DNA of 40,885 nt, taken from the NCBI GenBank assembly GCA_036745475.1, contig DAIOFZ010000003.1, positions 1-40,885 on the forward strand. Reading direction: 5' to 3'. Within the stretch, counting starts at the first letter, position 1, and each line of letters opens with the position of its first letter. The position numbers were made by a program, and so were the translations under genes. Shown here one piece after another: positions 18,251-40,885 of this stretch. Source of the stretch: Actinomycetota bacterium. Its GTDB lineage: Bacteria > Actinomycetota > UBA4738 > HRBIN12. Under the pieces are notes generated by a model. The model was not told the origin of the DNA, searched no databases, and saw nothing but the letters and a program-made list of their open reading frames with translations.

Positions 18251-18256
18251 ACCGTC

Positions 18257-18262
18257 AGCGTA
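18257..18262 (-). promoter_or_regulatory. -10-like TACGCT (minus strand) 6 nt upstream of ligD GTG 18250 (leaderless-type)
   Basis: The minus strand reads ...cctgaccgaTACGCTgacggtGTG, with no SD. Confidence 0.4.
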
Positions 18263-18277
18263 TCGGTCAGGCGCGAC

Positions 18278-18606: not shown

Positions 18607-18678
18607 GGGGGTTCGTACCCCGGCGCAACGGTGGGGTCAAGCGGAGGGATAGGCGGTCGAACCAGGGGTGGGTCCGCG

Positions 18679-18705
18679 GGACATGTCCGCGACGACGGCT
18701 AGAAT
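18679..18705 (+). promoter_or_regulatory. Putative ku promoter: palindrome GGACATGTCC, then aTGTCCGCG-N8-TAGAAT
   Basis: TAGAAT (18700-18705) lies 46 nt upstream of ATG 18752. The perfect 10-bp palindrome at 18679-18688 overlaps the -35 zone. TGTC lies 11 nt upstream of the -10, as in the RecA-NDp motif (6 of 9 positions match). Confidence 0.4.
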
Positions 18706-18751
18706 CGCGGTCCCGAGCGTCGAGCGGGACGCCCAGGCACGAGGAGCGCGC

Positions 18752-19644
18752 ATGCCACCCAGGTCGATGTGGAAGGGGGCCATCTCGTTCGGCCTCGTCA
18801 CGATCCCGGTCGCCGTCTATCCGGCCACCGAGGAGAAGTCGCTGAAGTTCAACCAGCTCCACGACGAGGACATGGGCCGGATCCGGTACAAGCGCGTGTG
18901 CTCGATCGACGGCGAGGAGGTCGAGTTCGACCACATCGTCAAGGGTTACGAGGTCGAGAAGGACAAGTACGTCGTCATGACCGATGAGGACTTCGACGCG
19001 GTCCCGGTCGAGTCGAGCCGCGCGATCGACATCCAGCAGTTCGTCGACCTCGAGGAGATCGACCCGATCCTGTTCAAGAAGTCCTACTACCTCGTCCCGG
19101 ACGAGACAGGGGCCAAGGCCTACGCGCTGTTGCGCAAGGCGCTCTCGGACGAGCGCAAGGTCGGGATCGCGAAGGTCAGCTTCCGCGACAAGGAGCACCT
19201 GTCCGCGCTCCGGTTCAAAGACGAGGTGTTCGTGCTCGAGACGATGTACTGGCCCGACGAGGTCCGGGCGGCCGAGTTCGACACCGTGCCGGCCGACGAG
19301 AAGGTCCGTGAGAACGAGGTCGACATGGCCCGGTCGCTGATCGAGAGCCTGACAGAACCCTGGAACCCCGAGGCCTTCACGGACGCCTACCGCGAGGCGA
19401 TGCTCGAGATCGTCGAGAAGAAGCTCGCCGGCGAGCCGATCGAGGCGCCGACCGAGGAGGCGCCCGCGCGGGTCGTGGACCTGATGGAGGCCCTCAAGGC
19501 CTCGGTCGAAGCGGCCAAAGAGAAGACGCCGTCGGCGGGGGGCGCCAAGCGGAGCGGCGCGAAGCGGCCGGCGGCCAAGAAGCCCACGGCCAAGCGCGCA
19601 CCCGCGGCGAAGAAGGCGGCGCCGCGCAAGAAGGCGTCCGGTGA

Positions 19645-19648
<4 letters not shown>
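18752..19648 (+). CDS. ku: NHEJ DNA end-binding protein Ku with Lys/Ala/Pro-rich C-terminal tail
   Basis: MPPRSMWKGAISFGLVTIPVAVYPATEE...RYKRVC...KGYEV is the canonical bacterial Ku N-terminus. GAGGAG SD lies 5 nt upstream of ATG 18752. The track ORF starts at 18668. Confidence 0.9.
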
Positions 19649-20097
<449 letters not shown>

Positions 20098-20098
20098 C

Positions 20099-25748: not shown

Positions 25749-25914
25749 AGAAGGCTCGCTTTCCGCCGTCCGTCAAGTGCGCACCCATCCGATCGCATGC
25801 CCCCGGACGTACCTGGAGTGGGCGCGCAGCCTCGTTTGACGGGTTCGACCCGGCGAGCGGAGAATCTACGGCCGTGTCCCGCGTTCGGGGCACCATCGGA
25901 TGGGAGGGGGAAGG

Positions 25915-27021
25915 ATGCGCTCATGGCGAGCGAAGGCGCTGGTGCTCATCGGCGTACTGTCCCTCGTCGCTGCGGCGTGCGGCGACGACGACGGCGGTGA
26001 GACCGGCGGGACCGGGGGGACCGGAGGCACCGGTGCCGCCGAATGCAACGCGGACATCCAGGTCGGGATGGCGTTCGACATCGGCGGTCTCGGCGACAAG
26101 TCGTTCAACGACTCCGCGAACGCCGGTTTGCAGCAGGCGATCGCCGACGGCTTGGTCTGTGAGGACAACGTCGTGACGAACGAGGCGAACTCCACCGGGT
26201 CCGACCGCGACCAGAACCTGCAGGCGCTGGCCGACGCCGGATTCAACCTCGTGATCGGTGTGGGGTTCGCGTTCTCACCCGGGGTCAACACGATCGCCCC
26301 GGACTATCCCGACCAGAGCTTCATGATCGTTGACGGATACGCGACCTGTGGCACCGACTGCGGGCTGACGAACGACGCCAAGCAGATCCCGAACGTGGCC
26401 GACTACACGTTCAAGGAACAGGAGGGTTCCTTCCTGGTCGGCGCGGCGGCGGTGCTCAAGTGCCAGTGCAAGACGATCGGGTTTCTCGGCGGCCAGACCG
26501 GGCCGCTGATCGAGAAGTTCCAGGCGGGCTACGAGGCCGGGGCGCACCAGATCGACCCCGACGTCGAGGTGCTCGTCGAGTACATCGGCGACGACACGAC
26601 GGCGTTCAACGACCCGGTCAAGGGCGAGCAGCTCTCGACGAAGATGTACGACGAGGGCGCGGAGATCATCTACCACGCTGCCGGCGCATCCGGAGCCGGC
26701 CTGTTCAACGCCGCGGTCGAGGCGCAGAAGCTCGCGATCGGCGTCGACTCCGACCAGTACCTGACGGCCAGTCCCGAGCAGCAGCCGCTGATCCTCACCT
26801 CGATGCTGAAGCGCGTCGACGTCGCGGTCTACAACGCGATCGAGGCCGTCGGCGAAGGTTCGTTGGGGGGCAGCCAGGTCTTCGGCATGGCGGAGGACGG
26901 GGTCGACTACGCGACCTCGAACCCGGAGGAGCTCACGTCCGACATCACCGAACAGCTGGACGCGTTCAAGCAGCAGATCATCGACGGAACGATCGTCGTG
27001 CCGGACACCCCGGGCGGCTAG
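25915..27021 (+). CDS. BMP-family (Med/PnrA-like) ABC transporter substrate-binding lipoprotein
   Basis: MRSWRAKALVLIGVLSLVAAAC GDDD is a signal peptide with a lipobox Cys. Also DKSFND and GVDSDQ motifs. GGGAGGGGGAAGG SD lies before ATG 25915. Confidence 0.85.
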   Translation: MRSWRAKALVLIGVLSLVAAACGDDDGGETGGTGGTGGTGAAECNADIQVGMAFDIGGLGDKSFNDSANAGLQQAIADGLVCEDNVVTNEANSTGSDRDQNLQALADAGFNLVIGVGFAFSPGVNTIAPDYPDQSFMIVDGYATCGTDCGLTNDAKQIPNVADYTFKEQEGSFLVGAAAVLKCQCKTIGFLGGQTGPLIEKFQAGYEAGAHQIDPDVEVLVEYIGDDTTAFNDPVKGEQLSTKMYDEGAEIIYHAAGASGAGLFNAAVEAQKLAIGVDSDQYLTASPEQQPLILTSMLKRVDVAVYNAIEAVGEGSLGGSQVFGMAEDGVDYATSNPEELTSDITEQLDAFKQQIIDGTIVVPDTPGG

Positions 27022-27042
27022 TCCCGGGAGACGGCGAACACC

Positions 27043-28575
27043 GTGACGAACGGCGAAGGGGCGGGGGGCGGCGGCTCCCCGCCCCTCGTCGTGCTCGAAC
27101 GCATCACGAAGCGGTTCCCCGGCGTCGTGGCCAACGACGGGGTCGATCTCGAGCTCCGAGGCGGCGAGGTCCACGCGCTGATCGGAGAGAACGGGGCCGG
27201 CAAGTCCACGTTGATGCGGGTGCTCTACGGCATGTACCCGGCCGACGGCGGCAGGATCCTCGTCCGGGGCGAGGTGGCCAGGATCGGCTCGCCGCGCGAC
27301 GCGATCGCCCTGGGGATCGGGATGGTGCATCAGCACTTCGTGCTCGTCGATCCGTTCACCGTCACCGAGAACATCATCCTCGGCGAGGAGGGCGGGGCGC
27401 TGCTCGACATCGATGCAGCGCGGCAACGTGTGGCGGAGCTCGCCGAGTCCTACGCCTTCAGCGTGGACCCGCGAGCGGTCGTCGAGGACCTCTCGGTCGG
27501 TGAGGAACAGCGCGTCGAGATCTTGAAGGCGCTGTACCGCGGCGCGGAGATCCTCATCCTCGACGAGCCGACGGCGGTTCTCACGCCGAACGAGACGAAG
27601 GACCTGTTCGGCAACCTGCGGAAGCTCCGCGAGGCGGGGCGGACGATCGTGTTCATCAGCCACAAGCTGGACGAGGTGCTCGAGATCGCCGATCGGATCA
27701 CGGTGCTCCGCCGAGGGCGCGTCGTCGGCGAGACACGACCGGCCGACACCTCCAAGGCCAAGCTCGCCGAGATGATGGTCGGCCGGCCAGTGCTCTTTCG
27801 GCTCGACAAGCCGCAGGTCGAGATCGGCGAACCCGTTCTCCGCGTGGACGGACTCGCCGGCGAGGGGAAGCTGAACGGGATCGATCTCGAGGTGCGTGCG
27901 GGCGAGATCCTCGGCGTCGCGGGCGTCGAGGGCAACGGCCAGCGTGAGCTCGCCGAGACCCTCTTCGGGCTGCGGACACGGGCGTCGGGCACGATCGAGC
28001 TCGAGGGCTCATCGATCACCGGTCGTTCGGTGGGGGACATCCGGAACGCCGGGGTCGGGTACATCCCGGAGGACCGTCACGAGCAGGGGCTCGTGCTGAA
28101 CATGACGCTCTGGGAGAACGCGGCCCTGGGCCGCCAGGACGACGAGGAATTTTCGAGCGGCCTCGGCGTGCTCTTCATCAAGAGGATCAAGGCGCTCGCC
28201 GTCCGCCTGGTACAGCTCTTCGACATCCGCACGCGGAGCGTCGACGTCAACGCCTCAACGTTGTCGGGCGGCAACCAGCAGAAGCTGATCCTCGCGCGGG
28301 AGCTCGAGACCGACCCGAAGCTCATGATCGCCGCTCAGCCGACCCGTGGCCTCGATGTCGGGGCGATCGAGTTCGTCTGGAGGCAGATCCTCGACCAGAA
28401 GGCTGCCGGCCGAGCAATCCTGCTGATCTCGGCCGAGCTCGACGAGATCTACGCGCTCTCGGACCGGATCGTCACGCTCTACGAGGGCAAGATCACCGGC
28501 GAGTTCGCACCCGACTCCCCGCCGGAGGAGATCGGCGTGGGGATGCTCGGCGGGACCAAGGAGCCGGTGGCGTAG
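27043..28575 (+). CDS. ABC transporter ATP-binding protein with duplicated NBD (sugar/nucleoside type)
   Basis: 510 aa with Walker A GENGAGKST, signatures LSVGEEQR and LSGGNQQK, and Walker B ILILDEPT. Confidence 0.9.
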   Translation: MTNGEGAGGGGSPPLVVLERITKRFPGVVANDGVDLELRGGEVHALIGENGAGKSTLMRVLYGMYPADGGRILVRGEVARIGSPRDAIALGIGMVHQHFVLVDPFTVTENIILGEEGGALLDIDAARQRVAELAESYAFSVDPRAVVEDLSVGEEQRVEILKALYRGAEILILDEPTAVLTPNETKDLFGNLRKLREAGRTIVFISHKLDEVLEIADRITVLRRGRVVGETRPADTSKAKLAEMMVGRPVLFRLDKPQVEIGEPVLRVDGLAGEGKLNGIDLEVRAGEILGVAGVEGNGQRELAETLFGLRTRASGTIELEGSSITGRSVGDIRNAGVGYIPEDRHEQGLVLNMTLWENAALGRQDDEEFSSGLGVLFIKRIKALAVRLVQLFDIRTRSVDVNASTLSGGNQQKLILARELETDPKLMIAAQPTRGLDVGAIEFVWRQILDQKAAGRAILLISAELDEIYALSDRIVTLYEGKITGEFAPDSPPEEIGVGMLGGTKEPVA

Positions 28576-29817
28576 ATGGCCACCGAGGGTCTCGCGCCGC
28601 CCGTGTCCGCCATGCGATCGCGCCCGGCCTGGCTCGAGGGTCTCGTCGGGCAACTGGTGGCCCTGCTCGCCTCCCTCGGCATCGCGCTTCTCGCCGGCTC
28701 GCTCCTGATCATCGCGTACGGAGAGAGTCCGGTCACGGTGTACTCGTCGATCCTGCAGTACTCGGTGGAATCGGCGGACGGGATCGGCTACGTGCTCGCG
28801 ATCGCCACGCCGCTGATCTTCTCTGCGCTCGCGGTGGCCGTCTGCTTCAAGGGCGGCATGTTCAACATCGGGGTGGAGGGCCAGTACCTCGTCGCGATGG
28901 TCACGGCCGCCTGGGCCGAGATCGAGCTTGGATTCCTGCCGGGGCCGATCCTGGTGGTCGTGGTCCTGATCGCGGCGATGCTCGGCGGGATGATCTGGGC
29001 CGCGATCCCGGCGATCCTCAAGGTGAAGACGGGTGCTCACGAGGTCGTGACCACGATCATGCTGAACGGCATCGCGATCAGCCTCTTGGCGTGGGCGATC
29101 AACTTCCCCCTCAAGTTCTCGAACGCGCCGCCGGGACAGAACGTCGATCTGCGGACCGATCAGTTCCCGGAGGGTGGACTCATCGGTGACATCGGCCACT
29201 ACTTCGGCGTGACGCCGGGCGCCCACCTCTCATGGCTCTTCTTCTTGGCGGTCGGCGCCGCGATCGTCGTGTGGTTCCTGATTCGTAGGACACGGCTGGG
29301 GTACGAGGCTCGCGCCGTGGGCTCCTCGCCGGGATCGGCGAAGGCCGGTGGGGTCTCGATCGGGTCGATCCAGATCCGGCTCTTCCTCATCTCGGGCGCG
29401 CTGGCCGGGTTGGTGGGGATGCAGCAGATCTTGGCCGACCGCGGGTATCTTCCCCAGAATTACGTCGTCTTTCTCGGGTTCACCGGTATCGCGGTCGCGT
29501 TCCTCGGTCAGAACAACCCGATCGGGATCGTCTTCGCGGCGATCCTGTGGGGGATCCTGTCGCGAGGTGAGGTGGCGCTGCAGATCGAGAGCGAGGTGCC
29601 GCGCGAGTTCATCATCCTCCTGCAGGGCATCCTGATCCTGACGGTAGTGATCACCTATCAGTTCGCGAAGCGTCGGCTGGCGGCCCGGCAGCTCCAACGT
29701 GCGGGCGCGGCGGGCGAGCTCGAGGACTCGGCAGGTTCGGACGAAGACGCCGGTCCACGAGGGCCCGAGCTCGCCGGTCGGGAAGCGTTCGAGCGCGCCG
29801 GAGAGGGCGGCGTCTGA
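28576..29817 (+). CDS. ABC transporter permease (BPD_transp_2 type)
   Basis: 413-aa multi-TM ORF that starts immediately after the ATPase stop. It has an acidic, soluble C-terminal tail. Confidence 0.85.
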   Translation: MATEGLAPPVSAMRSRPAWLEGLVGQLVALLASLGIALLAGSLLIIAYGESPVTVYSSILQYSVESADGIGYVLAIATPLIFSALAVAVCFKGGMFNIGVEGQYLVAMVTAAWAEIELGFLPGPILVVVVLIAAMLGGMIWAAIPAILKVKTGAHEVVTTIMLNGIAISLLAWAINFPLKFSNAPPGQNVDLRTDQFPEGGLIGDIGHYFGVTPGAHLSWLFFLAVGAAIVVWFLIRRTRLGYEARAVGSSPGSAKAGGVSIGSIQIRLFLISGALAGLVGMQQILADRGYLPQNYVVFLGFTGIAVAFLGQNNPIGIVFAAILWGILSRGEVALQIESEVPREFIILLQGILILTVVITYQFAKRRLAARQLQRAGAAGELEDSAGSDEDAGPRGPELAGREAFERAGEGGV

Positions 29818-30791
29818 TGCCATTCACGGACATCGCCGTCGCGCTCCAGATCTCGTTCACCTACTTCACGATCCTGTATCTCACGGGGCTCGGCGGGTTG
29901 TTCAGCGAGCGTTCGGGCATCGTGAACATCGGCCTCGAAGGACTGATGATCATCGGAACGGTCACGGGCGCGTTCGGAGCACGGTTCTTCACCGACACGA
30001 TCGACCTGGGTACACCGTGGGGTCCGATCCTCGGACTGCTGTTCGGCGCGCTGTGCGGGGCGATCTTCGCGAGCATCCACGCGGTCGCGACGATCACGTT
30101 CCGCGTCGATCACATCGTGTCGGGCGTGGTCATCAACCTCGTCGCGGTGGGGCTCGCGCGGTTCCTCTCGTACGCGTTCTTCAACGGCCAATCCACGCAA
30201 TCCGACCCCGGCGGCCCCCATCTCGCGAGGCTGGACATCCCCTTCCTGTCCTCGTTACCGGGGGGTCTGGATCGCGCGTTCCAGTCGCTCTCGCCGATGG
30301 TCCTGGTGGCGGCGTTCATGGTCGTGCCCGTCTGGTACGCGCTGAACCGCCTTCGCTGGGGGCTGCGACTGCGTTCGTGCGGCGAGAACCCGGAGGCGAC
30401 CCGCTCGCTCGGCGTCAGCGTCCCGCAGTACCGCTACCAGGGCGTGTTGCTGTCGGGCGCGTTCGCGGGGCTGTCGGGCGCGTTTCTGGCCGCGGAGGTG
30501 ATCGGGAACTGGCGGGAGGGCCAGACGCTCGGTCTGGGGTTCATCGCGCTCGCCGCGCTGATCCTGTCGAACTGGAACCCGATCCGGTTGATGTTCTTCG
30601 CCTGGCTGTTCGGGTTCGCCGTCGCGATCCCGCTCCGGCTGAACGACGCGCCGGTCATCTCGGCGCTCCCGCCCCAGTTCATCCGGATGATCCCGTACAT
30701 CGTCACGATCGTGGCGATCGCCGGATTCGTCGGGCGGGTGCGGCCCCCCGCCGCGGCCGGCAAGGCCTACGAAGGCGGTGGCGGGACGTAG
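29817..30791 (+). CDS. ABC transporter permease (second subunit)
   Basis: 324-aa multi-TM ORF. ATG shares one nt with the upstream stop (TGATG). Confidence 0.85.
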   Translation: MPFTDIAVALQISFTYFTILYLTGLGGLFSERSGIVNIGLEGLMIIGTVTGAFGARFFTDTIDLGTPWGPILGLLFGALCGAIFASIHAVATITFRVDHIVSGVVINLVAVGLARFLSYAFFNGQSTQSDPGGPHLARLDIPFLSSLPGGLDRAFQSLSPMVLVAAFMVVPVWYALNRLRWGLRLRSCGENPEATRSLGVSVPQYRYQGVLLSGAFAGLSGAFLAAEVIGNWREGQTLGLGFIALAALILSNWNPIRLMFFAWLFGFAVAIPLRLNDAPVISALPPQFIRMIPYIVTIVAIAGFVGRVRPPAAAGKAYEGGGGT

Positions 30792-30810
30792 TCCGGCTAC
30801 GGGCCGAGCG

Positions 30811-31428
30811 TCACTCGGTCCCGAACAATCGGTCCCCGAAGTCGCCGAGACCGGGCACGATGTAGCCGCGCTCGTTCAGCTGGCGGTCGATCGCCGCGGT
30901 GAAGATCGGGACGTCCGGATGGTCGGCCTCCATCCGCCGGATCCCCTCGGGGGCGGAGACGACGCAGACGAAGCGGATCGACCCGGGCCTGCCCTCCTTC
31001 ACTGCGGACGTCGCCGCCGAACCCGAGCCGCCCGTGGCGAGCATCGGGTCGAGCACCAGGACGTGTCGGCCCTGCACCGGGGGGAGCTTGCGGTAGTACG
31101 ACTGCGCCTCGAGCGAGGCCTCGTCGCGTTCCAGACCGATGTAGCCGACGGCGACCTCGGGGAACAGCTCGGTCACCGCCTCCAGCATCCCGAGCCCCGC
31201 GCGGAGGATCGGCACTGCGACGAGGTCGCCGAGCACACGTCCGGTCGTCTCCTCGAGCGGGGTCCGCACGACGATCTCCGTCGTCGGCAGATCGCGGATC
31301 GCCTCGAGCGCGAGGGTCAGGGCCAGGCGCTTGGCCAGCGTTCGGAACACCGGCGGCGCCGTCTCCTGCGAGCGGAGCTGCGCCAGGAGATGGCCCGCGA
31401 GCGCGTGATCCACGACGGTCACGGACAC
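30811..31428 (-). CDS. upp: Uracil phosphoribosyltransferase
   Basis: 205 aa with PRPP loop VLVLDPMLATGGS and C-terminal GYIVPGLGDFGDRLFGT. Confidence 0.9.
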   Translation of the reverse strand: MSVTVVDHALAGHLLAQLRSQETAPPVFRTLAKRLALTLALEAIRDLPTTEIVVRTPLEETTGRVLGDLVAVPILRAGLGMLEAVTELFPEVAVGYIGLERDEASLEAQSYYRKLPPVQGRHVLVLDPMLATGGSGSAATSAVKEGRPGSIRFVCVVSAPEGIRRMEADHPDVPIFTAAIDRQLNERGYIVPGLGDFGDRLFGTE

Positions 31429-31434
31429 GCGCGC

Positions 31435-31440
31435 ATCCTA
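31435..31440 (-). promoter_or_regulatory. -10-like TAGGAT (minus strand) 6 nt upstream of upp GTG 31428 (leaderless-type)
   Basis: The minus strand reads ggTAGGATgcgcgcGTG, with no SD. Confidence 0.4.
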
Positions 31441-31530
31441 CCGGGAGCGGGCGAGGCCCGGACCACGGCGGACGCCGTCGTCGATCGGCAGGTTGCCAGA
31501 CCAGGGCCGGGCTGCCACGATGGCCGCCTG

Positions 31531-31581
31531 ATGCGGGAGACCTTCGGTTCCTGGTTCTATGGCGGGCGGTGCCCGGCCTAG
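31531..31581 (+). CDS. Candidate leader peptide MRETFGSWFYGGRCPA (aromatic-codon-rich)
   Basis: 16 codons plus TAG. It has consecutive TGG-TTC-TAT (W-F-Y) and an earlier TTC, and lies 113 nt upstream of DAHP synthase. There is no SD. A possible promoter TTGCCA-N17-CACGAT ends 9 nt before the ATG. Confidence 0.4.
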   Translation: MRETFGSWFYGGRCPA

Positions 31582-31605
31582 TCGCCTGAACCGAAGGCAA
31601 CAGGG

Positions 31606-31637
31606 ACCCCGGGCCGGGAGCCCGGGGTTTCGTCGTT
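31606..31637 (+). terminator. Terminator-like hairpin (attenuator candidate) in the DAHP synthase leader
   Basis: ACCCCGGGC (31606-14), loop CGGGA, GCCCGGGGT (31620-28). This 9-bp GC stem is followed by TTCGTCGTT. Confidence 0.4.
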
Positions 31638-31693
31638 CCCGAGGCCGTTGCAGCGGACGCGACGAGGGACGACGAGGGAGCTGGAGGAACGCG

Positions 31694-32719
31694 ATGGTCG
31701 TGGTCATGAAGCGCGAGGCCACCGAGGCCGACATCGAGCAGGTCTCCGAACGCGTCCGCGCCGCCGGAGGCGAGGCGTTCGTCTCGCGCGGCGCGGTCCA
31801 CACGATCGTCGGCCTCGTCGGCGACACCGAGCGGTTCCGGGCGATCCCCTGGGGGCAGCTCCCCGGCGTCGATCACGTGATCCAGGTCGGCAAGCCGTAC
31901 AAGATGGTCGCCGCCGATCTGCACCCCACCCCGACGACCGTGAACGTCGGCACGACGCCGGTCGGTCGTGGCACGTTCACCCTGATCGCCGGGCCGTGCG
32001 CGGTCGAGAGCGAGGAGCAGGCGATGCTCGCGACCAAGGCCGCCCGGGCCGCGGGCGCGACGATCCTGCGCGGCGACGTGTACAAGCCGCGGACGTCGCC
32101 CTACTCGTTCCAGGGGCTCGGCGAACGGGGGCTCGAGGTCCTGGAGGAGTGCCGGCGTCAGACCGGGCTACCGATCGTCGTAGAGGTCGTCGACGTCTCG
32201 CAGGTTGAGCACGTCGCGGGGGTTGCCGACTGCATCCGCGTAGGTACGCGGAACGCCCAGAACTTCGAGCTCCTGAAGGAGGTCGGGCTGTCCCGGCGGC
32301 CCGTGATGCTGAAGCGGGGCCTTGCGATGACGATCGAGGAGTGGCTCCAGGCCGCCGAGTACATCGCGCAACGCGGGAACTCCGAGATCATCCTGTGCGA
32401 GCGCGGGATCCGGACGTTCGAGCCCGCGACACGGAATACGCTCGACCTCGCGGGGATGGCGGTCGCGCAGACCGAGTCCCACCTGCCCGTGATCGTCGAC
32501 CCGTCGCACGCGGTCGGCAAGCGCCAGCTCGTCGCGCCGATGTCGCGTGCGGCGCTCGCGGCGGGAGCGGACGCGGTGATGATCGACGTGCACCCCGATC
32601 CCGAGAGCGCCCTGTGCGACGGCCCACAGGCGCTCACCCCCGACGAGATGCTCGAACTCGGTCGCGAGCTCGAACAGCTCGCCGCGGCGCTCGGCCGGCC
32701 GTTCAACCACGCCGAGTAG
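31694..32719 (+). CDS. aroF: 3-deoxy-7-phosphoheptulonate (DAHP) synthase, class I-beta with N-terminal ferredoxin-like/ACT-like regulatory domain
   Basis: MVVVMKREATEADIEQVSERV... is the N-terminal regulatory domain. It is followed by GPCAVES, KPRTSPYSFQG and IVDPSH. GGAGGAA SD lies 5 nt before ATG 31694. The track ORF starts at 31559. Confidence 0.9.
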   Translation: MVVVMKREATEADIEQVSERVRAAGGEAFVSRGAVHTIVGLVGDTERFRAIPWGQLPGVDHVIQVGKPYKMVAADLHPTPTTVNVGTTPVGRGTFTLIAGPCAVESEEQAMLATKAARAAGATILRGDVYKPRTSPYSFQGLGERGLEVLEECRRQTGLPIVVEVVDVSQVEHVAGVADCIRVGTRNAQNFELLKEVGLSRRPVMLKRGLAMTIEEWLQAAEYIAQRGNSEIILCERGIRTFEPATRNTLDLAGMAVAQTESHLPVIVDPSHAVGKRQLVAPMSRAALAAGADAVMIDVHPDPESALCDGPQALTPDEMLELGRELEQLAAALGRPFNHAE

Positions 32720-32916: not shown

Positions 32917-33693
32917 TCAGCCGGGCAGGACCGGGGTGAGCTCGGCGATGTCGCACGAGCCGCGCCAGCGAGCGAGCCATTCGCTCGGGGCACCCGCGCG
33001 GCTCTTGCGCTTGTCGACGAGGAGCTTGGCCGCCTCTTCCCACTCCGGGCCCTGCAGCACGCGCGATGCCGCGTGGAACTCGTTGGCCGCCGTGTCGCGC
33101 CCCTTGCGCCGCGTCACGACGACGAGCTCCGACACGCCGGGGATGCCCGGCACGCTCTGATCCTCGGGCCCGGGTTCCCGCTTGGACAGGACGAAGATCT
33201 TGCCGTTGCGGTACACGAACCAGGACGGGACCAGCCGCCGCCGACCGTTCGCCTCGACACCGACCCAGATGACGTCCGACCGCTTGAGGCCGTCCTCGAT
33301 CGCCTTGGGAAGCTTCGCCGACGCGAGCTGGACCAGGACCGGGACCTCGATCTCGCCGACGATCTCCTCGTCGATGACGAACGACACGACGTAGGTCCCG
33401 GTCTCGTCGAACGAGGCGTCGGTGACCGTATCCGTCTCGGCCGTGAGATCCATCGAGCCGATCATGCGCCGGACCGCGGGACCCCAGCGATGCACCAGGC
33501 GCCCGGACGGCCCGTAGAAGTGGATCTCCTCGGTCACGATGCCCGTCCCCACCTTCCACGCGCGGGTGACGACGAAGGGAAGCGCCGTCCCGGGCGAGCC
33601 GAGCAGGTAGACCCCCGGGGGACCCTGTTCGCCGTAGGTGTCCCAGACCCGCTGGTCCACGACGTTGGCGGAGACGAGCTCGCCGACGGTCAT
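32917..33693 (-). CDS. Hypothetical protein (258 aa)
   Basis: The ORF has normal composition. The C-terminal half (SWFVYRNGKIFVLSKRE...ELVVVTRRKG) loosely resembles a PNPOx-like split barrel. I am not confident of any family. Confidence 0.6.
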   Translation of the reverse strand: MTVGELVSANVVDQRVWDTYGEQGPPGVYLLGSPGTALPFVVTRAWKVGTGIVTEEIHFYGPSGRLVHRWGPAVRRMIGSMDLTAETDTVTDASFDETGTYVVSFVIDEEIVGEIEVPVLVQLASAKLPKAIEDGLKRSDVIWVGVEANGRRRLVPSWFVYRNGKIFVLSKREPGPEDQSVPGIPGVSELVVVTRRKGRDTAANEFHAASRVLQGPEWEEAAKLLVDKRKSRAGAPSEWLARWRGSCDIAELTPVLPG

Positions 33694-37969: not shown

Positions 37970-40885
37970 ATGGTCGTACGCGTTCCGACCGCAACACCCG
38001 CGCCGGGACGGCGTCGGCTCATCATCGTCGTCGTCGCGGTGGTGGCCGCCTTCCTCGTCCTGTTCACCGCGCTCTCGGGGTTCTTCGTCGACGTCCTGTG
38101 GTTCCGAGAGGTCCGCCTCTCCGACGTGTTCTGGACGGTCCTTCGGACCAGGGTCTTCCTTGGGCTCGCGTTCGGGCTGACGTTCTTCGTGCTGCTGTTT
38201 TCGAACCTGTGGATCGTGCGCCGCATCACGCCGCGCTTCCACGCGCTCACCCCCGAGCAGGAGATCATCGAGCGCTACCGGATGCAGTTCGAGCCATACA
38301 TCCGCTGGCTCCTGCCGTTGTTCGCGCTCGTGATCGCGTTCTTCGTGGGGCTTGGGGTCACGAGCCAGTGGCAGACATACCTGCTGTGGCGCAACGGCTC
38401 CGGGTTGATGTTCGGGAACGCCGAGCCGCTGTTCGATCGCGACCCCGCCTTCTACGTCTTCAGCCTGCCGTGGCTCAAGTTCATGCAGGGCTGGTTGTTC
38501 TCGGCGCTGGTCGGCGTGACGTTCCTGACCGCGCTCGCACACTACCTGTGGGGAGGGATCCGGCCGCAGGCGCCGGGGTTCGTCGACAAGGTCACGCCGC
38601 AGGTCAAGGCGCACATGTCGGTGCTTCTCGGCCTGATCATGCTCACGAAGGCGTGGGGGTACTACCTGGGTCAGTTCGACCTGCTGACCTCGACCCGAGG
38701 GGTCGTGGTCGGCGCGTCTTACACCGATGTGAACGCGCAGCTGCCCGCGCTCCGGATCCTCGTGGTGATCGCGATCGCCTGCGCGATCCTGTTCCTGGTC
38801 AACATCCGGCTCCGCGGATGGGCGTTGCCCGTCATCGCCGTCGGCCTGTTGGCGCTCGTGTCGATCATCGCGGGGGCGGCGTACCCGGCGTTCGTGCAAC
38901 GCTTCCGGGTCGCGCCGCAGGAGTTCCAGCGGGAACAGCCGTACATCGTGGACAACATCGAGGCGACGAGACGGGCGTTCGAGCTCGACGGGATCCAGAG
39001 CAGCTCGCGCCCGATCGGGGAGTCGGTCTCGACCGAACAGGTGCGCTCGAACGAGGCCACGATCTCGAACATCCGCCTGTGGCGCCCCGACGTCCTGCGC
39101 GACAACTACATCTCGCTGCAGCGCTTCCGCTCGTACTACGAGTTCAACGACGTGGACGTCGACCGGTACATCGTCGACGGGCAGCGACGCGTCCTGATGG
39201 TCTCGACGCGCGAGGTGAGCCAGGCGGGTATCCCGGAGGGGGGCAAGACCTGGCAGAACGTCCACCTCCAGTACACCCATGGGTTCGGGGCGGTGGCGTC
39301 GCAGGTGAACACCGCGACCACCGAGGGGCAACCCGTGTTCACGCTGCGCGACATCCCGCCGGTCGGCGCTCCTGCGCTCGTGGGCAACGGACAGCGCGTC
39401 TACTACGGCGAGGGTGCGCCCGGCGACGCCGCGTTCGTCGTGGTCGACACCGGCACCCAGGAGCTCGACTTCCAGGGCACGGCGACCGACGATCAGGCGC
39501 AGGAGACCTTCACGTACGACGGTGACGGCGGCATCCCGGTCGGTGGTCTGTTCCAGCGCGCCTTGTTCGCGTGGCGCTACCGCGACGTCAACCTGCTGAT
39601 CTCGGACCTGATCACCGGTGACAGCCGGATCATGATCTACCAAGACATCACCGCGCGGGTCCCGAAGGCCGCCCCGTTCCTGCGGTTCGATGCCGATCCC
39701 TACTCCGCCGTCGTGGACGGGCGGCTCGTCTGGATCTGGGACGCGTATACGACGACGAACCAGTACCCGTACTCCGACTTCGTCGACCTGGCGGAGGTCG
39801 CGTCGCCCTCGGCGCAGGAGCAAGCTCCGTCGCTCGGCGGCGACGTGAACTACCTCCGTAATTCCGTGAAGGTCGTCGTCGACGCGTACGAAGGCTCGAT
39901 GCGCTACTACGTCGCCGAGCCGTCGGACCCGATCATCCAGGCGTGGAGCCTGGCATTCCCGACGATGTTCACCCCGCTCGACGAGGCGTCGCCTGAACTG
40001 CTCGAGCACTTCAGGTACCCGGAGAACCTGTTCCAGATCCAGGCGTTCGAGTACACGAACTACCACGTCACGGATCCGAACGTGTTCTACGGCAAGCAGG
40101 ACTTCTGGGCCCTGCCGATCGACCCGACCCTGTCCACGGAGGGCAACAGTGTCCTGATGCGCCCGTACTACGTCCTGATGCGCCTCCCTGGGGAGGACGA
40201 CGAGACCTTCGTGCTCATCCTGCCGTTCACACCGCTTGATCGGCAGAACATGGTGGCGTGGCTCGCGGCCAAGTCTGACCCCGGAGCGGACTACGGGGAC
40301 ATCGTGAGCTTCGAGTTCCCGTCGGGGGTGAACGTCGACGGGCCGACGCAGGTCTTCTCGCGGATCAACCAGGATGCTCGGTTCTCCGCGGAGCGAACCC
40401 TGCTGGGTCAGGGAGGCTCGAGCATCGTGTTCGGCGACTTCCTCGTGATCCCGCTCCAGGATTCGCTGTTCTACGTCCAGCCCGTGTACGTGCAATCCAA
40501 CCAGGAGAACGCGATCCCCGAGCTCAAGCGTGTGGTGGTGGCCAACGGCTCGGCGATCGGGATCGGTTCTTCCCTGCGTGCGGCGTTGACCGACTCGCTC
40601 GGCGAGGTCGTGCCGCCCGAGGGCGGAGGCCGGCCGCCGCAGGGCTCGGTCGAGGAGCAGATCCAGGCCCTGCTCGACCAGGCGACTCAGCACTTCACGG
40701 CGGCGGACGCGGCCCTGCGCGCGGGTGACCTCGCGACGTATCAGCGCGAGATCGTGGCCGCCCAGGCGGTGACCGAGCAGGCTCAGCAGCTGATCGCCGA
40801 CCTGCTGGGCGCGCAGGCATCGGGTTCGCCGTCGCCCTCGCCGTCGGTCTCGCCCTCGCCCTCGCCGTCGGTCTCGGCGTCGCCC
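37970..40885 (+). CDS. UPF0182 family large membrane protein, C-terminus cut by window edge
   Basis: Absent from the ORF track (no stop within the window). ATG 37970 opens MVVRVPTATPAPGRRRLIIVVVAVVAAFLVLFTALSGFFVDVLWFREVRLSDVFWTVLRTRVFLGL.... The frame stays open to 40885 (972 codons). The antisense track ORF 37886..40693 is its shadow. TGATAGGCT (an extended -10) lies at 37914-37922. Confidence 0.8.
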   Translation, partial: MVVRVPTATPAPGRRRLIIVVVAVVAAFLVLFTALSGFFVDVLWFREVRLSDVFWTVLRTRVFLGLAFGLTFFVLLFSNLWIVRRITPRFHALTPEQEIIERYRMQFEPYIRWLLPLFALVIAFFVGLGVTSQWQTYLLWRNGSGLMFGNAEPLFDRDPAFYVFSLPWLKFMQGWLFSALVGVTFLTALAHYLWGGIRPQAPGFVDKVTPQVKAHMSVLLGLIMLTKAWGYYLGQFDLLTSTRGVVVGASYTDVNAQLPALRILVVIAIACAILFLVNIRLRGWALPVIAVGLLALVSIIAGAAYPAFVQRFRVAPQEFQREQPYIVDNIEATRRAFELDGIQSSSRPIGESVSTEQVRSNEATISNIRLWRPDVLRDNYISLQRFRSYYEFNDVDVDRYIVDGQRRVLMVSTREVSQAGIPEGGKTWQNVHLQYTHGFGAVASQVNTATTEGQPVFTLRDIPPVGAPALVGNGQRVYYGEGAPGDAAFVVVDTGTQELDFQGTATDDQAQETFTYDGDGGIPVGGLFQRALFAWRYRDVNLLISDLITGDSRIMIYQDITARVPKAAPFLRFDADPYSAVVDGRLVWIWDAYTTTNQYPYSDFVDLAEVASPSAQEQAPSLGGDVNYLRNSVKVVVDAYEGSMRYYVAEPSDPIIQAWSLAFPTMFTPLDEASPELLEHFRYPENLFQIQAFEYTNYHVTDPNVFYGKQDFWALPIDPTLSTEGNSVLMRPYYVLMRLPGEDDETFVLILPFTPLDRQNMVAWLAAKSDPGADYGDIVSFEFPSGVNVDGPTQVFSRINQDARFSAERTLLGQGGSSIVFGDFLVIPLQDSLFYVQPVYVQSNQENAIPELKRVVVANGSAIGIGSSLRAALTDSLGEVVPPEGGGRPPQGSVEEQIQALLDQATQHFTAADAALRAGDLATYQREIVAAQAVTEQAQQLIADLLGAQASGSPSPSPSVSPSPSPSVSASP
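40826..40885 (+). repeat. Coding Ser/Pro repeat (SPSPSPSVSPSPSPSVSASP) built on an 18-nt unit TCGCCCTCGCCGTCGGTC
   Basis: Read directly from the sequence at the 3' end of the UPF0182 ORF. Confidence 0.6.

What the first reader, a model, noticed from the sequence alone, without database searches (positions are those of the whole stretch)
31493..31693. Candidate Trp/Phe/Tyr-sensing leader-peptide attenuator upstream of DAHP synthase
Seen in sequence:
- The 265-nt spacer between divergent upp and the DAHP synthase gene holds a 16-codon ORF (ATG 31531 to TAG 31579-81) encoding MRETFGSWFYGGRCPA. It has one codon for each aromatic amino acid in a row (TGG TTC TAT) plus an earlier TTC.
- Leader codons 3-7 (31541-50, CCTTCGGTTC) are perfectly complementary to 31588-97 (GAACCGAAGG), just past the leader stop.
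- A 9-bp GC hairpin (31606-14 / 31620-28, loop CGGGA) followed by TTCGTCGTT lies 66 nt before the structural ATG.
- A competing pairing exists: GCCCGG 31571-76 with CCGGGC 31609-14.
- A possible promoter, TTGCCA-N17-CACGAT (31493-31521), would make the leader ORF itself nearly leaderless.

Established knowledge: ribosome-mediated attenuation (trpL, pheL, hisL) uses exactly this logic, and DAHP synthase is the shared first step for Phe, Tyr and Trp. I recall a leader peptide reported upstream of aroF in Corynebacterium glutamicum; that should be verified.

Inference: transcription read-through into aroF is coupled to charged Trp/Phe/Tyr-tRNA supply. This would act on top of allosteric control by the enzyme's N-terminal regulatory domain. 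I could not resolve the complete terminator/antiterminator switch by eye.
Basis: partly seen in the sequence, partly recalled or inferred. Interest (0 to 1): 0.7.

Follow-up and report, generated by a model that had tools for sequence, protein, structure and literature searches.

The report
Aromatic amino-acid leader-peptide attenuator of DAHP synthase
A 16-codon mini-gene containing Trp, Phe and Tyr codons, followed by a switchable terminator hairpin, sits in front of the first gene of aromatic amino-acid synthesis. It is conserved in over a hundred uncultured soil Actinomycetota and most likely works like the classic trp attenuator, so it is a well-supported new example of a known mechanism.

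Summary
Comparative data turn a suggestive single sequence into a well-supported element.

- **Conservation.** The short ORF, its aromatic codon run, the GC hairpin with T-rich tail and the promoter are present upstream of every orthologous class I-beta DAHP synthase with at least 60% amino-acid identity (11 of 11 genome loci). They also occur in 120 metagenome loci, giving 102 unique leaders. They are absent from relatives with 55% identity or less.
- **Leader peptide.** Consensus M-[QR]-x-x-F-G-x-W-F-F-Y-G-G-x-x-P-A-stop. Phe is present in 100%, Tyr in 98% and Trp in 81% of leaders.
- **Start.** The leader ATG lies 7-11 nt after a conserved TTGCCA-N17/18-CAnnAT promoter and has no Shine-Dalgarno, so the ORF is probably leaderless.
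- **Switch.** Folding resolves three states:
  - No ribosome: a long 1:2 hairpin (31541-50 with 31588-97) forms, and the terminator follows.
  - Ribosome stalled at W/F/Y: an antiterminator (31572-79 with 31611-18, stacked on 31581-88 with 31601-07) forms.
  - Ribosome at the stop codon: it masks the antiterminator, and the terminator (31603-31) forms.
- **Covariation.** It supports the terminator and the 1:2 stem. The antiterminator core is invariant, so covariation cannot test it.
- **Known relatives.** No Rfam family matches. The closest precedent is the aroR-aroF attenuator of Corynebacterium glutamicum (F-Y-F leader).

Verdict: a new member of a known kind. Nothing has been tested experimentally.

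The parts
31493..31521 (+). Promoter: -35 TTGCCA (31493-98), 17-nt spacer, -10 CACGAT (31516-21). It lies 9 nt upstream of the leader ATG.
   Evidence: TTGCCA or TTGTCA, a 17/18-nt spacer and CAnnAT are present in 97 of 99 relatives. The distance to the ATG is 7-11 nt, most often 9. The generic sigma-70 scanner did not call it. The transcription start has not been mapped.
31531..31581 (+). Leader ORF of 16 codons plus TAG, encoding MRETFGSWFYGGRCPA. It is probably leaderless or has a 5' UTR of 3 nt or less.
   Evidence: An in-frame ATG-to-stop ORF of 14-21 codons (97 of 102 have 16 or 17) is conserved in 102 unique relatives. Mean aromatic fraction is 0.30. An SD-like motif precedes the leader in only 18 of 99 relatives, against 89 of 94 before the structural gene.
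31552..31560 (+). Regulatory codons TGG TTC TAT (Trp-Phe-Tyr), the proposed ribosome stall sites. An additional TTC lies at 31543-45.
   Evidence: Counting back from the stop codon, position -10 is W in 65 and F in 14 of 102, -9 is F in 73 and W in 17, -8 is F in 61, and -7 is Y in 90. The spacing to the antiterminator strand is fixed, with four codons between Y and the CCG codon.
31541..31597 (+). The 1:2 (anti-antiterminator or pause) structure. The outer stem pairs 31541-50 with 31588-97. Inner pairs include 31564-67 with 31571-74 (GGGC with GCCC). The structure sequesters the antiterminator 5' strand when no ribosome is on the leader.
   Evidence: It folds at -34.9 kcal/mol and is the minimum-free-energy fold of the ribosome-free nascent transcript. 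Across the family, cognate leader/downstream duplexes are better than non-cognate ones (-20.0 vs -19.0 kcal/mol; permutation z = -4.0, 0 of 5000), with clear compensatory examples in L003, L009, L097 and L137.
31572..31618 (+). Antiterminator. The outer stem pairs 31572-79 (CCCGGCCU, the end of the leader ORF including the first base of the stop codon) with 31611-18. It is stacked on hairpin P1 (31581-83 with 31605-07, and 31585-88 with 31601-04).
   Evidence: It folds at -26.3 kcal/mol when the ribosome front edge is placed at the W, F or Y codons and the transcript ends before the terminator 3' arm. It cannot form when the ribosome is at the stop codon. The same pairing is predicted in 78-90 of 102 relatives. 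There are RNA-level constraints at synonymous sites: the third base of codon -3 is C in 100 of 102, codon -5 is GGG in 95 of 102, and Pro is CCG in all 12 sequences of the set found by protein homology. The core pairs never vary, so covariation is uninformative.
31603..31637 (+). Intrinsic-terminator-like hairpin (31603-14 with 31620-31; core 31606-14 with 31620-28; loop CGGGA) and T-rich tail TTTCGTCGTT (31628-37).
   Evidence: It folds at -23.1 kcal/mol and is the RNAalifold consensus structure of 31 diverse relatives, with 3 pairs showing compensatory changes. 96.5% of cells are paired, and the covariation score of 0.076 against 0.043 was reached by 0 of 500 shuffles. The outer pair alternates A-T (87) with G-C (10), and the inner pair C-G (63) with T-A (15). 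The tail has 4.4 T in its first 8 nt against 1.24 expected. The T-rich tail exists only on the + strand.
31683..31687 (+). Shine-Dalgarno GGAGG of the structural gene.
   Evidence: Read directly from the sequence. An SD-like motif is present in 89 of 94 relatives. It is not consistently sequestered in predicted folds.
31694..32719 (+). Regulated gene: class I-beta DAHP synthase (3-deoxy-7-phosphoheptulonate synthase) with an N-terminal ferredoxin-like regulatory domain. It is monocistronic, because the next gene is convergent.
   Evidence: Pfam: PF00793 at 1.2e-75 and PF18152 at 7.2e-19. Homologues are named 3-deoxy-7-phosphoheptulonate synthase. The neighbouring ORF 32917-33693 is on the minus strand.

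Best explanation
This is a classical ribosome-mediated (leader-peptide) transcription attenuator that controls a monocistronic class I-beta DAHP synthase gene.

Transcription starts at or within about 3 nt of the leader ATG, from a conserved TTGCCA-N17-CAnnAT promoter. The 16-codon leader is therefore translated as a leaderless ORF. Three states follow.

1. **No ribosome engaged.** Leader codons 4-7 pair with the segment just past the stop codon (31541-50 with 31588-97). This locks the end of the leader, including CCCGG, into a long hairpin. The terminator (31603-31) then forms and transcription stops near 31630-37.
2. **Charged tRNA-Trp, tRNA-Phe or tRNA-Tyr is scarce.** The ribosome stalls at TGG, TTC or TAT (31552-60). 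This melts the 1:2 stem and leaves CCCGGCC-UAG-UCGCC free. That strand pairs with the 5' arm and loop of the terminator (31572-79 with 31611-18, stacked on hairpin P1) before the 3' arm is made. RNA polymerase reads through into the gene.
3. **All three are plentiful.** The ribosome runs to UAG (31579-81). Its footprint covers the antiterminator strand, so the terminator forms.

What is shown: the anatomy, its conservation, the association with this gene only, covariation in the terminator and the 1:2 stem, and the predicted mutually exclusive folds. What is inferred: the transcription start, translation of the ORF, stalling, actual termination at this sub-canonical terminator, and which of the three amino acids really matter.
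For: - **Observation.** Exact in the sequence.
- **Distribution.** The element occurs upstream of all 11 genome loci whose DAHP synthase is 60-97% identical, and in none of the 69 loci at 55% identity or less.
- **Gene association.** A DNA-pattern scan of metagenomes hit its 120-locus limit. In all 110 loci with enough downstream DNA for a match, a DAHP synthase match follows: 109 begin 32-113 nt after the pattern match, and the frameshift-ridden L166 gives only a partial match 450 nt downstream. The gene is usually divergent from upp.
- **Leader peptides.** 102 unique leaders, 97 of them 16-17 codons. All contain F, 100 contain Y, 83 contain W and 82 contain all three. The aromatic run sits at a fixed distance from the stop codon.
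- **RNA-level constraint at synonymous positions.** Codon -5 is GGG in 95 of 102, and the third base of codon -3 is C in 100 of 102.
- **Start.** The promoter is conserved and the leader lacks an SD, while the structural gene has one.
- **Alternative folds.** Ribosome-free 1:2 structure -34.9, antiterminator -26.3, terminator -23.1 kcal/mol. A ribosome at the stop codon masks the antiterminator. The antiterminator is predicted in 78-90 of 102 relatives in the stalled state.
- **Covariation.** Terminator: 3 compensatory pairs, 0 of 500 shuffles reach the observed score. 1:2 stem: cognate beats non-cognate, z = -4.0.
- **T-rich tail.** Enriched 3.5-fold, on the + strand only.
- **Precedents.** The aroR (F-Y-F)/aroF attenuator in Corynebacterium glutamicum responds to Phe limitation (PMC11802643, PMC4046766). 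A leader peptide formed without a ribosome-binding site has been reported for ilvBNC in the same organism (Morbach et al. 2000, cited in PMC4046766).
Against: - There are no experimental data of any kind for this lineage, which is known only from metagenome-assembled genomes.
- The U-tract is imperfect, with 4-5 U in 8 nt. The generic scanner does not call a terminator or a promoter.
- At equilibrium the terminator is more stable than the antiterminator under every ribosome position. The switch therefore has to be kinetic. This is usual for attenuators, but it was not demonstrated here.
- The five core antiterminator pairs never vary, so covariation neither supports nor refutes them. P1 shows only 74% pairing and little covariation in the MAFFT alignment.
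- In the ribosome-free fold, 31 of 102 relatives still pair the terminator arm with the antiterminator strand. The default-off state is therefore not uniformly predicted.
- 19% of leaders lack Trp.
- The metagenome set was collected with a pattern that fixes CCGGSGTAGTCGCC and the hairpin core. Conservation of those bases in that set is circular; only the 12 protein-anchored sequences are unbiased for them.
Confidence: 0.8

Rival explanations
1. Translational attenuation, as in the mycobacterial leaderless poly-Cys short ORFs. [quoted passage not shown] Stalling in the leader remodels the mRNA to free that site, with little or no premature transcription termination.
For: The U-tract is sub-canonical and no terminator is called by the scanner. 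In the window's full-length fold the leader pairs with the SD-proximal region. In some relatives (L006, L082) the pyrimidine-rich tail after the hairpin (CUUCC, CCUCC) is complementary to the SD. There is a precedent in the same phylum (bioRxiv 10.1101/834739).
Against: SD sequestration is not conserved. The SD is mostly unpaired in 39 of 89 relatives, pairs with the leader ORF in only 19 of 89, and pairs with varied spacer segments in 28 of 89. [quoted passage not shown] It is always followed by a T-rich tail on the sense strand and has the geometry of a terminator, with a GC stem of 9-10 bp that covaries.
Confidence: 0.08
2. A nascent-peptide (arrest-peptide) sensor. The conserved C-terminal half W-F-x-Y-x-G-x-x-P-[AG]-stop acts inside the ribosome exit tunnel, as TnaC does. 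It would slow release at UAG or respond to free aromatic amino acids, rather than reading charged-tRNA levels through hungry codons.
For: The peptide is unusually uniform in length and sequence for a leader peptide: P at -2 and G at -5 are nearly invariant, Y at -7 occurs in 90 of 102, and the stop is TAG in 101 of 102. TnaC also has a conserved Trp, a C-terminal Pro and a critical stop codon (my own knowledge).
Against: The conserved positions are explained at the RNA level. CCG-GCG-TAG is the antiterminator strand. Codon -5 uses the rare GGG. The third base of codon -3 is fixed while the amino acids at -3 and -4 vary freely. The aromatic positions interchange W, F and Y and tolerate T, S, P or A at -8. 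This fits codon sensing better than a specific tunnel contact. An intrinsic-type terminator directly follows, instead of a long Rho-loading spacer. Stalling at the stop codon would mask the antiterminator and so turn the biosynthetic gene off. For a free-amino-acid sensor that is still logically possible, so this rival is not excluded.
Confidence: 0.05
3. There is no amino-acid sensing. The short ORF is a conserved small protein or an upstream ORF that merely promotes or permits expression. The hairpin would be a constitutive partial terminator, an insulator from the divergent upp promoter region, or an RNA-stability element.
For: No experimental link to amino-acid supply exists. The enzyme already carries an allosteric regulatory domain.
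Against: A 30% aromatic content concentrated in a run of 3-4 codons, at a fixed distance from a strand that can pair with the terminator arm, in front of the committed step of aromatic biosynthesis and nowhere else, is very unlikely without a sensing role. Independent Tyr-run leaders followed by canonical terminators precede the same gene in other phyla.
Confidence: 0.05

Closest known systems
aroR-aroF leader-peptide attenuator of Corynebacterium glutamicum (Neshat et al. 2014; described in PMC11802643, PMC4046766, PMC3890552)
   Same: It is in the same phylum. A short leader ORF with a run of aromatic codons lies upstream of a DAHP synthase gene. Read-through is enhanced by ribosome stalling under aromatic amino-acid (Phe) limitation. 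Corynebacterial leader peptides can be made without a ribosome-binding site (Morbach et al. 2000, cited in PMC4046766).
   Different: The aroR motif is F-Y-F and has no Trp. Here W-F-(F)-Y dominates and 82 of 102 leaders carry all three aromatic residues. By my own recollection, the C. glutamicum aroF enzyme is a different DAHP synthase type (E. coli-like class I-alpha). Here it is class I-beta with a ferredoxin-like N-domain. aroR heads an operon, whereas here the gene is monocistronic. Sequence relatedness could not be tested because no aroR sequence was on hand.
Classical enterobacterial attenuators trpL and pheL (Rfam Trp_leader, Phe_leader)
   Same: The logic has the same four segments: regulatory codons in segment 1, a 1:2 hairpin, a 2:3 antiterminator that overlaps the leader stop codon, and a 3:4 terminator. 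A ribosome at the stop codon masks segment 2.
   Different: There is no sequence or covariance-model similarity: no Rfam hit, even at E up to 10. The ORF is probably leaderless rather than SD-led. One codon each for several amino acids replaces tandem repeats of one. The stems are very GC-rich and the U-tract is weak.
Leaderless poly-Cys short ORFs of mycobacteria (Canestrari et al. 2020; bioRxiv 10.1101/834739)
   Same: An actinobacterial leaderless short ORF whose hungry codons sense one class of amino acid and control the downstream biosynthetic gene in cis.
   Different: Those elements act by unmasking the ribosome-binding site (translational control). Here a conserved terminator-like hairpin with a T-rich tail lies well upstream of an SD that is not consistently sequestered.
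ilvB1 leader attenuator of Mycobacterium tuberculosis (PMC13236596) and the ilvB upstream ORF of Corynebacterium (PMC10272879)
   Same: Leader-peptide transcription attenuation upstream of an amino-acid biosynthesis gene in Actinomycetota, with a short terminated transcript of about 120 nt.
   Different: They involve a different pathway (branched-chain amino acids), different regulatory codons and unrelated sequence.

Membership tests
Ribosome-mediated (leader-peptide) transcription attenuators | A short ORF with conserved start and stop lies between the promoter and the structural gene | tested here: met
   The ORF spans 31531-31581. An in-frame ATG-to-stop ORF of 14-21 codons is present in all 11 protein-anchored relatives and in 102 unique sequences.
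Ribosome-mediated (leader-peptide) transcription attenuators | The leader is enriched in codons for the amino acid or acids made by the regulated pathway | tested here: met
   Mean aromatic fraction is 0.30. The W/F/Y run sits at positions -10 to -7. F is present in 102, Y in 100 and W in 83 of 102 leaders. The regulated gene is a DAHP synthase.
Ribosome-mediated (leader-peptide) transcription attenuators | An intrinsic terminator (GC hairpin plus U-tract) lies between the leader ORF and the structural gene | tested here: met
   A 9-12 bp GC hairpin folds at -23.1 kcal/mol. It is conserved with compensatory changes and has a T-rich tail of 4.4 T in 8 nt against 1.24 expected. Caveat: the U-tract is interrupted and falls below the threshold of the generic scanner.
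Ribosome-mediated (leader-peptide) transcription attenuators | An antiterminator that excludes the terminator. Its 5' strand is free when the ribosome stalls at the regulatory codons and is covered when the ribosome reaches the stop codon. | tested here: inconclusive
   It is predicted in the window (31572-79 with 31611-18 plus P1; -26.3 kcal/mol) with the right ribosome dependence, and in 78-90 of 102 relatives. Synonymous-site constraints support it. However, its core pairs are invariant, so covariation says nothing. The terminator is also more stable at equilibrium.
Ribosome-mediated (leader-peptide) transcription attenuators | A 1:2 (anti-antiterminator or pause) pairing between the regulatory-codon region and the antiterminator region | tested here: met
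   A perfect 10-bp stem pairs 31541-50 with 31588-97, and the structure folds at -34.9 kcal/mol. Cognate duplexes beat non-cognate ones across the family (z = -4.0, 0 of 5000), with compensatory examples. The effect size is modest, at about 1-1.5 kcal/mol.
Ribosome-mediated (leader-peptide) transcription attenuators | Read-through rises when the cognate charged tRNA is limiting, and this depends on translation of the leader | not testable with these tools
   This needs reporter fusions, Term-seq or in-vitro coupled transcription-translation.
aroR-aroF attenuator of Corynebacterium glutamicum | Homologous leader (F-Y-F motif) upstream of the corynebacterial aroF operon | not tested
The published motif F-Y-F (PMC4046766) differs from W-F-(F)-Y here. 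The enzyme here is class I-beta with an FXD domain. I treat aroR as an analogue, not as the same family.
Rfam leader families (Trp_leader, Phe_leader and others) and T-box | A match to the family covariance model | tested here: not met
   cmscan of 31000-32200 at E up to 10 returned only chance-level hits to unrelated families. The whole window at gathering thresholds returned 0 hits.
Mycobacterial leaderless short-ORF translational attenuators | [quoted passage not shown] | tested here: not met
   The SD is mostly unpaired in 39 of 89 predicted full-length folds and pairs with the leader ORF in only 19 of 89. These are predictions only.
Mycobacterial leaderless short-ORF translational attenuators | The short ORF begins at the 5' end of the transcript (leaderless) | tested here: inconclusive
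   The conserved promoter lies 7-11 nt upstream of the ATG, and no SD precedes the leader (18 of 99 have an SD-like motif). The transcription start has not been mapped.

The most novel reading that the evidence does not exclude
The unusually uniform C-terminal half of the peptide (W-F-x-Y-x-G-x-x-P-[A/G]-UAG) may be more than a by-product of RNA constraints. It could act as a nascent-chain module that slows release at UAG, possibly modulated by free aromatic amino acids as in TnaC. The time the ribosome masks the antiterminator would then be set by the peptide itself. That would make the element a hybrid of a hungry-codon attenuator and an arrest peptide. A milder version is more likely (about 0.5): the single leaderless ORF works as a genuine three-input Trp-OR-Phe-OR-Tyr sensor for the common pathway.
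Probability: 0.06. Interest if true: 0.75.

Novelty: new member of a known kind. Interest (0 to 1): 0.45.

Why it matters
DAHP synthase is the committed step for all three aromatic amino acids. Its transcriptional control outside proteobacteria and Corynebacterium is poorly known, and an early comparative survey of Actinobacteria found no RNA elements for Phe or Tyr genes (PMC1262725).

- This element gives a clean, widely conserved example: at least 120 metagenome loci, with the scan stopped at its limit. One leaderless mini-ORF carries Trp, Phe and Tyr codons side by side. It could therefore integrate the supply of all three end products on top of allosteric control.
- It is absent from Rfam, so it would add a family for annotating soil Actinomycetota genomes.
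- Unrelated Tyr-run leaders upstream of the same gene in a deltaproteobacterial and an Anaerolineae genome suggest this solution has evolved repeatedly.
- The conceptual advance is small, because the mechanism is the textbook one.

Tried and rejected
- **Rfam.** A permissive scan of the region and a gathering-threshold scan of the whole window found nothing relevant. A known riboswitch, T-box or leader family is rejected.
- **Generic promoter and terminator scan.** It found nothing. I kept the elements on comparative evidence.
- **Equilibrium folding of the full leader with ribosome masks.** The terminator always wins, so an equilibrium switch is rejected. Truncated, co-transcriptional-style folds were needed.
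- **RNAalifold on a MAFFT alignment.** It recovers only the terminator. The variable segment after the stop codon is not aligned well enough to score P1 or the 1:2 stem column by column. I used an alignment-free cognate versus non-cognate duplex test instead.
- **First P0 register.** My first register for the small inner hairpin was off by one. This shows as the unpaired 61-72 column pair and is ignored.
- **Other copies of the element.** I searched before other genes with a covariance model and nhmmer over the window and 200 loci. There is one copy per locus, always before the DAHP synthase gene. The weak L010:314-426 hit is an ordinary intergenic hairpin.
- **Candidate trp leader.** A GTG-WWW short ORF at 40530 lies out of frame inside the UPF0182 coding region and is an artefact.
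- **SD sequestration by the leader or tail.** It is not conserved.
- **L166.** The one pattern hit without a clean leader ORF has frameshifts in both the leader and the enzyme gene, from assembly errors or a pseudogene.
- **Taxonomy.** Class-level placement of the lineage could not be obtained. The records say only Actinomycetota bacterium.
Full report
**1. Observation**

The window is 70% G+C. Between upp and a DAHP synthase gene lies a 265-nt spacer. The upp gene runs on the minus strand and starts at GTG 31428 (Pfam UPRTase 4e-67). The DAHP synthase gene runs on the plus strand from ATG 31694. Pfam finds DAHP_synth_1 at 1.2e-75 plus the N-terminal ferredoxin-like regulatory domain PF18152 at 7e-19.

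- the 16-codon ORF 31531-31581 (MRETFGSWFYGGRCPA), with TGG TTC TAT at 31552-60;
- the perfect 10-bp complementarity of 31541-50 with 31588-97;
- the 9-bp GC hairpin 31606-14 with 31620-28, loop CGGGA, tail TTCGTCGTT;
- the competing GCCCGG/CCGGGC pairing;
- TTGCCA-N17-CACGAT at 31493-31521.

On this single sequence the statistics are only moderate. In 1000 dinucleotide shuffles, an inverted repeat of 10 bp or more appeared in 3.5%, a hairpin of 9 bp or more in 1.9%, and both in 0.2%. The fold has z = -2.86. A generic scanner calls neither a sigma-70 promoter nor a canonical terminator. Rfam has no matching family, either in a permissive scan of the region or in a gathering-threshold scan of the whole window.

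**2. Comparative evidence**

The enzyme has many close homologues from uncultured Actinomycetota in metagenomes.

*Protein-anchored scan of one genome per species.* It returned 80 loci.
- In all 11 whose enzyme is 60-97% identical (L001-L011), the upstream region holds the same layout: a promoter-like TTGCCA-N17/18-CAnnAT, an ATG 9-11 nt later, a 16-26-codon ORF with an aromatic run, a GC hairpin built on CCCCGGG/CCCGGGG, and a T-rich tail.
- In L001-L010 the ORF ends in CCCGG-N2-TAG/TAA-(G)TCGCC. In L011 the ORF continues for about 26 nt past the CCCGG and the block after the stop codon is absent.
- Examples: MQAFSGFWFYGGPGPA, MQRCVGFWFFYGGHDPA, MRRFFAGRYFFYGGDDPA, MQGSSGYWFAYFGRDPG.
- None of the 69 loci at 55% identity or less has the element.

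*DNA-pattern scan of metagenome contigs for the leader end plus hairpin core.* It hit its 120-locus limit.
- All 110 loci with enough downstream DNA for a match encode a DAHP synthase downstream. In 109 of them the match begins 32-113 nt after the pattern match. The exception, L166, is frameshift-ridden and gives only a partial match 450 nt downstream.
- The gene is usually divergent from upp.
- A covariance model and nhmmer found exactly one copy per locus and none in front of other genes.

**3. The leader ORF**

There are 102 unique sequences, and 97 have 16 or 17 codons. Residues counted back from the stop codon:

| Position | Residues |
|---|---|
| -10 | W 65, F 14 |
| -9 | F 73, W 17 |
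| -8 | F 61, or T/S/A/V/P |
| -7 | Y 90 |
| -5 | G 101 |
| -2 | P 102 |
| -1 | A 89, G 13 |

- F occurs in all 102 leaders, Y in 100, W in 83, and all three in 82. The mean aromatic fraction is 0.30.
- Positions -4 and -3 vary freely as amino acids, yet the third base of codon -3 is C in 100 of 102.
- Codon -5 uses GGG in 95 of 102. By my own knowledge this is normally a rare Gly codon in high-GC genomes.
- Pro is CCG in all 12 sequences that were found through the protein rather than through the DNA pattern.

So the conserved C-terminal part of the peptide largely reflects RNA-level constraints (GGG ... CCCGG-SG-TAG-TCGCC). The aromatic run is conserved as a class of codons whose members interchange.

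**4. Promoter and start**

TTGCCA or TTGTCA, a 17/18-nt spacer and CAnnAT occur in 97 of 99 sequences with enough upstream DNA. The -10 element ends 7-11 nt before the leader ATG, most often 9 nt. Only 18 of 99 have any SD-like tetramer before the leader, against 89 of 94 before the structural gene.

The inference is that the leader is translated from a leaderless mRNA or one with a 5' UTR of 3 nt or less. This is common in Actinomycetota (PMC4633059). It is also reported for corynebacterial leader peptides (Morbach et al. 2000, cited in PMC4046766) and mycobacterial poly-Cys short ORFs (10.1101/834739). The transcription start itself is not shown.

**5. The switch in the window**

- **Ribosome-free nascent RNA.** It folds into one long imperfect hairpin, 31541-31597, at -34.9 kcal/mol. 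Inner pairs (31564-67 with 31571-74, and others) bury the CCCGG strand. The terminator arm stays free.
- **Ribosome front edge at the W, F or Y codon, transcript ending before the terminator 3' arm.** The best fold, at -26.3 kcal/mol, pairs 31572-79 (CCCGGCCU) with 31611-18 (GGGCCGGG, the inner part of the terminator 5' arm plus its loop). This is stacked on a small hairpin P1 (31581-88 with 31601-07). That is an antiterminator.
- **Ribosome at UAG.** Its footprint (about 31564-91) covers this strand. Only about -6 kcal/mol of alternative structure remains, and the terminator (31603-14 with 31620-31, -23.1 kcal/mol) is free to form.

At equilibrium the terminator is in the minimum-free-energy fold whatever the ribosome position. 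The decision must therefore be kinetic, as in the classical attenuators (my own knowledge).

Across the family, the terminator arm is predicted to pair with positions -7 to +2 around the stop codon in 78-90 of 102 sequences in the stalled states. The mean number of arm bases paired upstream drops from 5.5-6.1 to 2.9 when the ribosome is at the stop codon. The fixed spacing of four codons between the Tyr codon and CCG places CCCGG just beyond the front edge of a stalled ribosome.

**6. Covariation**

- **Terminator.** It is the RNAalifold consensus of 31 diverse members, with 10 pairs of which 3 have compensatory changes. 96.5% of cells are paired. The covariation score is 0.076 against 0.043 in shuffles (0 of 500 reach it) and is higher than all slid controls. 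In all 102 sequences the outer pair alternates A-T (87) with G-C (10), and the inner pair C-G (63) with T-A (15). The tail has 4.4 T in its first 8 nt against 1.24 expected, on the sense strand only.
- **1:2 stem.** It lies in a length-variable segment that MAFFT does not align. I therefore compared duplex energies of each leader 5' half with its own and with other sequences' post-stop segments. Cognate pairs averaged -20.0 kcal/mol against -19.0 for all non-cognate and -18.5 for distant non-cognate pairs. The permutation test gave z = -4.0 (0 of 5000), and Wilcoxon p = 5e-5. Clear compensatory cases include:
  - window, CCUUCGGUUC with GAACCGAAGG;
  - L003, CGUUCGGCUU with GAGCCGAACG;
  - L097, GUCUUCUACGGU with ACCGUAGAGGAG;
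  - L137, CUCGGCGAC with GUCGCCGAAGAG.
- **Antiterminator.** Its five core pairs never vary, so they are uninformative. P1 is 74% paired with little covariation in this alignment. Support for the antiterminator rests on energetics, geometry and synonymous-site conservation.

**7. Rivals**

- **Translational control by SD sequestration.** This is the mycobacterial Cys short-ORF type. It is not conserved in predictions: the SD is unpaired in 39 of 89 relatives and pairs with the leader in 19 of 89. It could still be an added layer in some members, where the CUUCC or CCUCC tail is complementary to the SD.
- **TnaC-like arrest peptide.** The uniform peptide and the fixed UAG suggest it. However, the pattern of constraint is RNA-like (section 3), and an intrinsic-type terminator directly follows.
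- **A non-sensing upstream ORF and hairpin.** This is hard to reconcile with the aromatic run, its geometry and its exclusive association with this gene.

**8. Comparison with what is known**

The mechanism is that of trpL and pheL. The closest biological precedent is aroR-aroF in Corynebacterium glutamicum. Its leader has an F-Y-F motif, and transcription is enhanced under Phe limitation while Tyr has no effect (PMC11802643, PMC4046766, PMC3890552).

The present family differs in several ways:
- The enzyme is class I-beta with an FXD domain.
- The leader motif includes Trp.
- The gene is monocistronic.
- The element belongs to an uncultured lineage.
- It is not in Rfam.

A 2005 survey found no RNA elements upstream of Phe or Tyr genes in Actinobacteria (PMC1262725). 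I therefore file it as a new member (a new sequence family) of a known kind.

**9. Noticed on the way**

Distant class I-beta DAHP synthase genes in a deltaproteobacterial MAG (L053) and an Anaerolineae MAG (L055) are preceded by unrelated short ORFs. L053 encodes ...LYQDYYWYYYYVTCGGD and L055 encodes ...VETYYYYYYVPFSGD.... Each is followed by a canonical terminator with a long U-tract just before the gene. Leader-peptide control of this enzyme therefore seems to have arisen repeatedly.

**10. Verdict**

Confidence in the attenuator mechanism is about 0.8. The unknowns are all experimental: the transcription start, termination efficiency at the weak U-tract, and which of Trp, Phe and Tyr actually regulate. 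Interest is moderate. This is a clean, widespread family with a three-amino-acid leader that is not in Rfam, but it introduces no new principle.

Noticed in passing
L053:2300-2500 and L055:650-866: Distant class I-beta DAHP synthase genes (about 50% identity) in a deltaproteobacterial MAG and an Anaerolineae MAG are preceded by unrelated short ORFs with tyrosine runs (MKCSVLQSGLYQDYYWYYYYVTCGGD; MNKHQQFAVETYYYYYYVPFSGDG...). Each is followed by a canonical terminator, GCGGAGC...GCUCCGC plus U6 and GACGUGGAGC...GCUCCACGUC plus U7. They look like independent Tyr-sensing attenuators of the same gene.
   Followed up: partly
L015:2300-2400 and L021:2260-2330: Two low-GC 'Actinomycetes bacterium DBS2-1' MAGs have short ORFs with Phe runs (MGFLLFFFPSINNARM; MGFFFLSLKNARM) upstream of their class I-beta DAHP synthase genes. 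No obvious terminator was seen in the quick scan.
   Followed up: no
L011:2320-2460: The most distant carrier (60% enzyme identity) has a longer 26-codon leader, MATRSGWFCVFYGAGRRPAGTRLQRT. Its CCCGG strand lies about 26 nt before the stop codon instead of next to it. The same CCCCGGG/CCCGGGG hairpin follows. This is a variant geometry that would need its own model.
   Followed up: no
window 31628-31675: The pyrimidine-rich terminator tail (UUUCGUCGUUCCC) is complementary to a purine-rich repeat (GGGACGACGAGGG) just upstream of the SD, which predicts a second hairpin in read-through transcripts. In some relatives (L006, L082) the tail (CUUCC, CCUCC) pairs with the SD itself. This is not conserved across the family.
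   Followed up: partly
window 31520-31531: The -10 region contains an ATG (ATG GCC GCC TGA) whose stop codon overlaps the leader start (TGATG). It arises because many -10 elements read CAnnATGG. It is probably incidental.
   Followed up: no
window 40530-40590: A GTG-TGG-TGG-TGG short ORF (MWWW...) looked like a possible trp leader. It lies out of frame inside the UPF0182-family coding region (37922 to beyond 40885) and is an artefact.
   Followed up: yes
L166:2500-3250: One metagenome locus carries the element with small indels that destroy the leader ORF. The DAHP synthase gene behind it also has several frameshifts. This is either an error-prone assembly or a decaying copy.
   Followed up: partly
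window 15755-19645; 20039-22561; 25840-30788: The surrounding genes are ordinary chromosomal ones. They include a LigD (primase-polymerase, phosphoesterase and ligase domains) and Ku pair for non-homologous end joining, a GlnD-type uridylyltransferase, and a PnrA-like nucleoside ABC transporter operon that converges on upp (their 3' ends meet near 30790-30811). MreB, a Zincin_2 peptidase and UPF0182 lie downstream. No tRNA genes or Rfam families are present in the 40.9 kb.
   Followed up: partly
window 32920-33693 (minus strand): The 258-aa ORF convergent with the DAHP synthase gene has no Pfam match.
   Followed up: no
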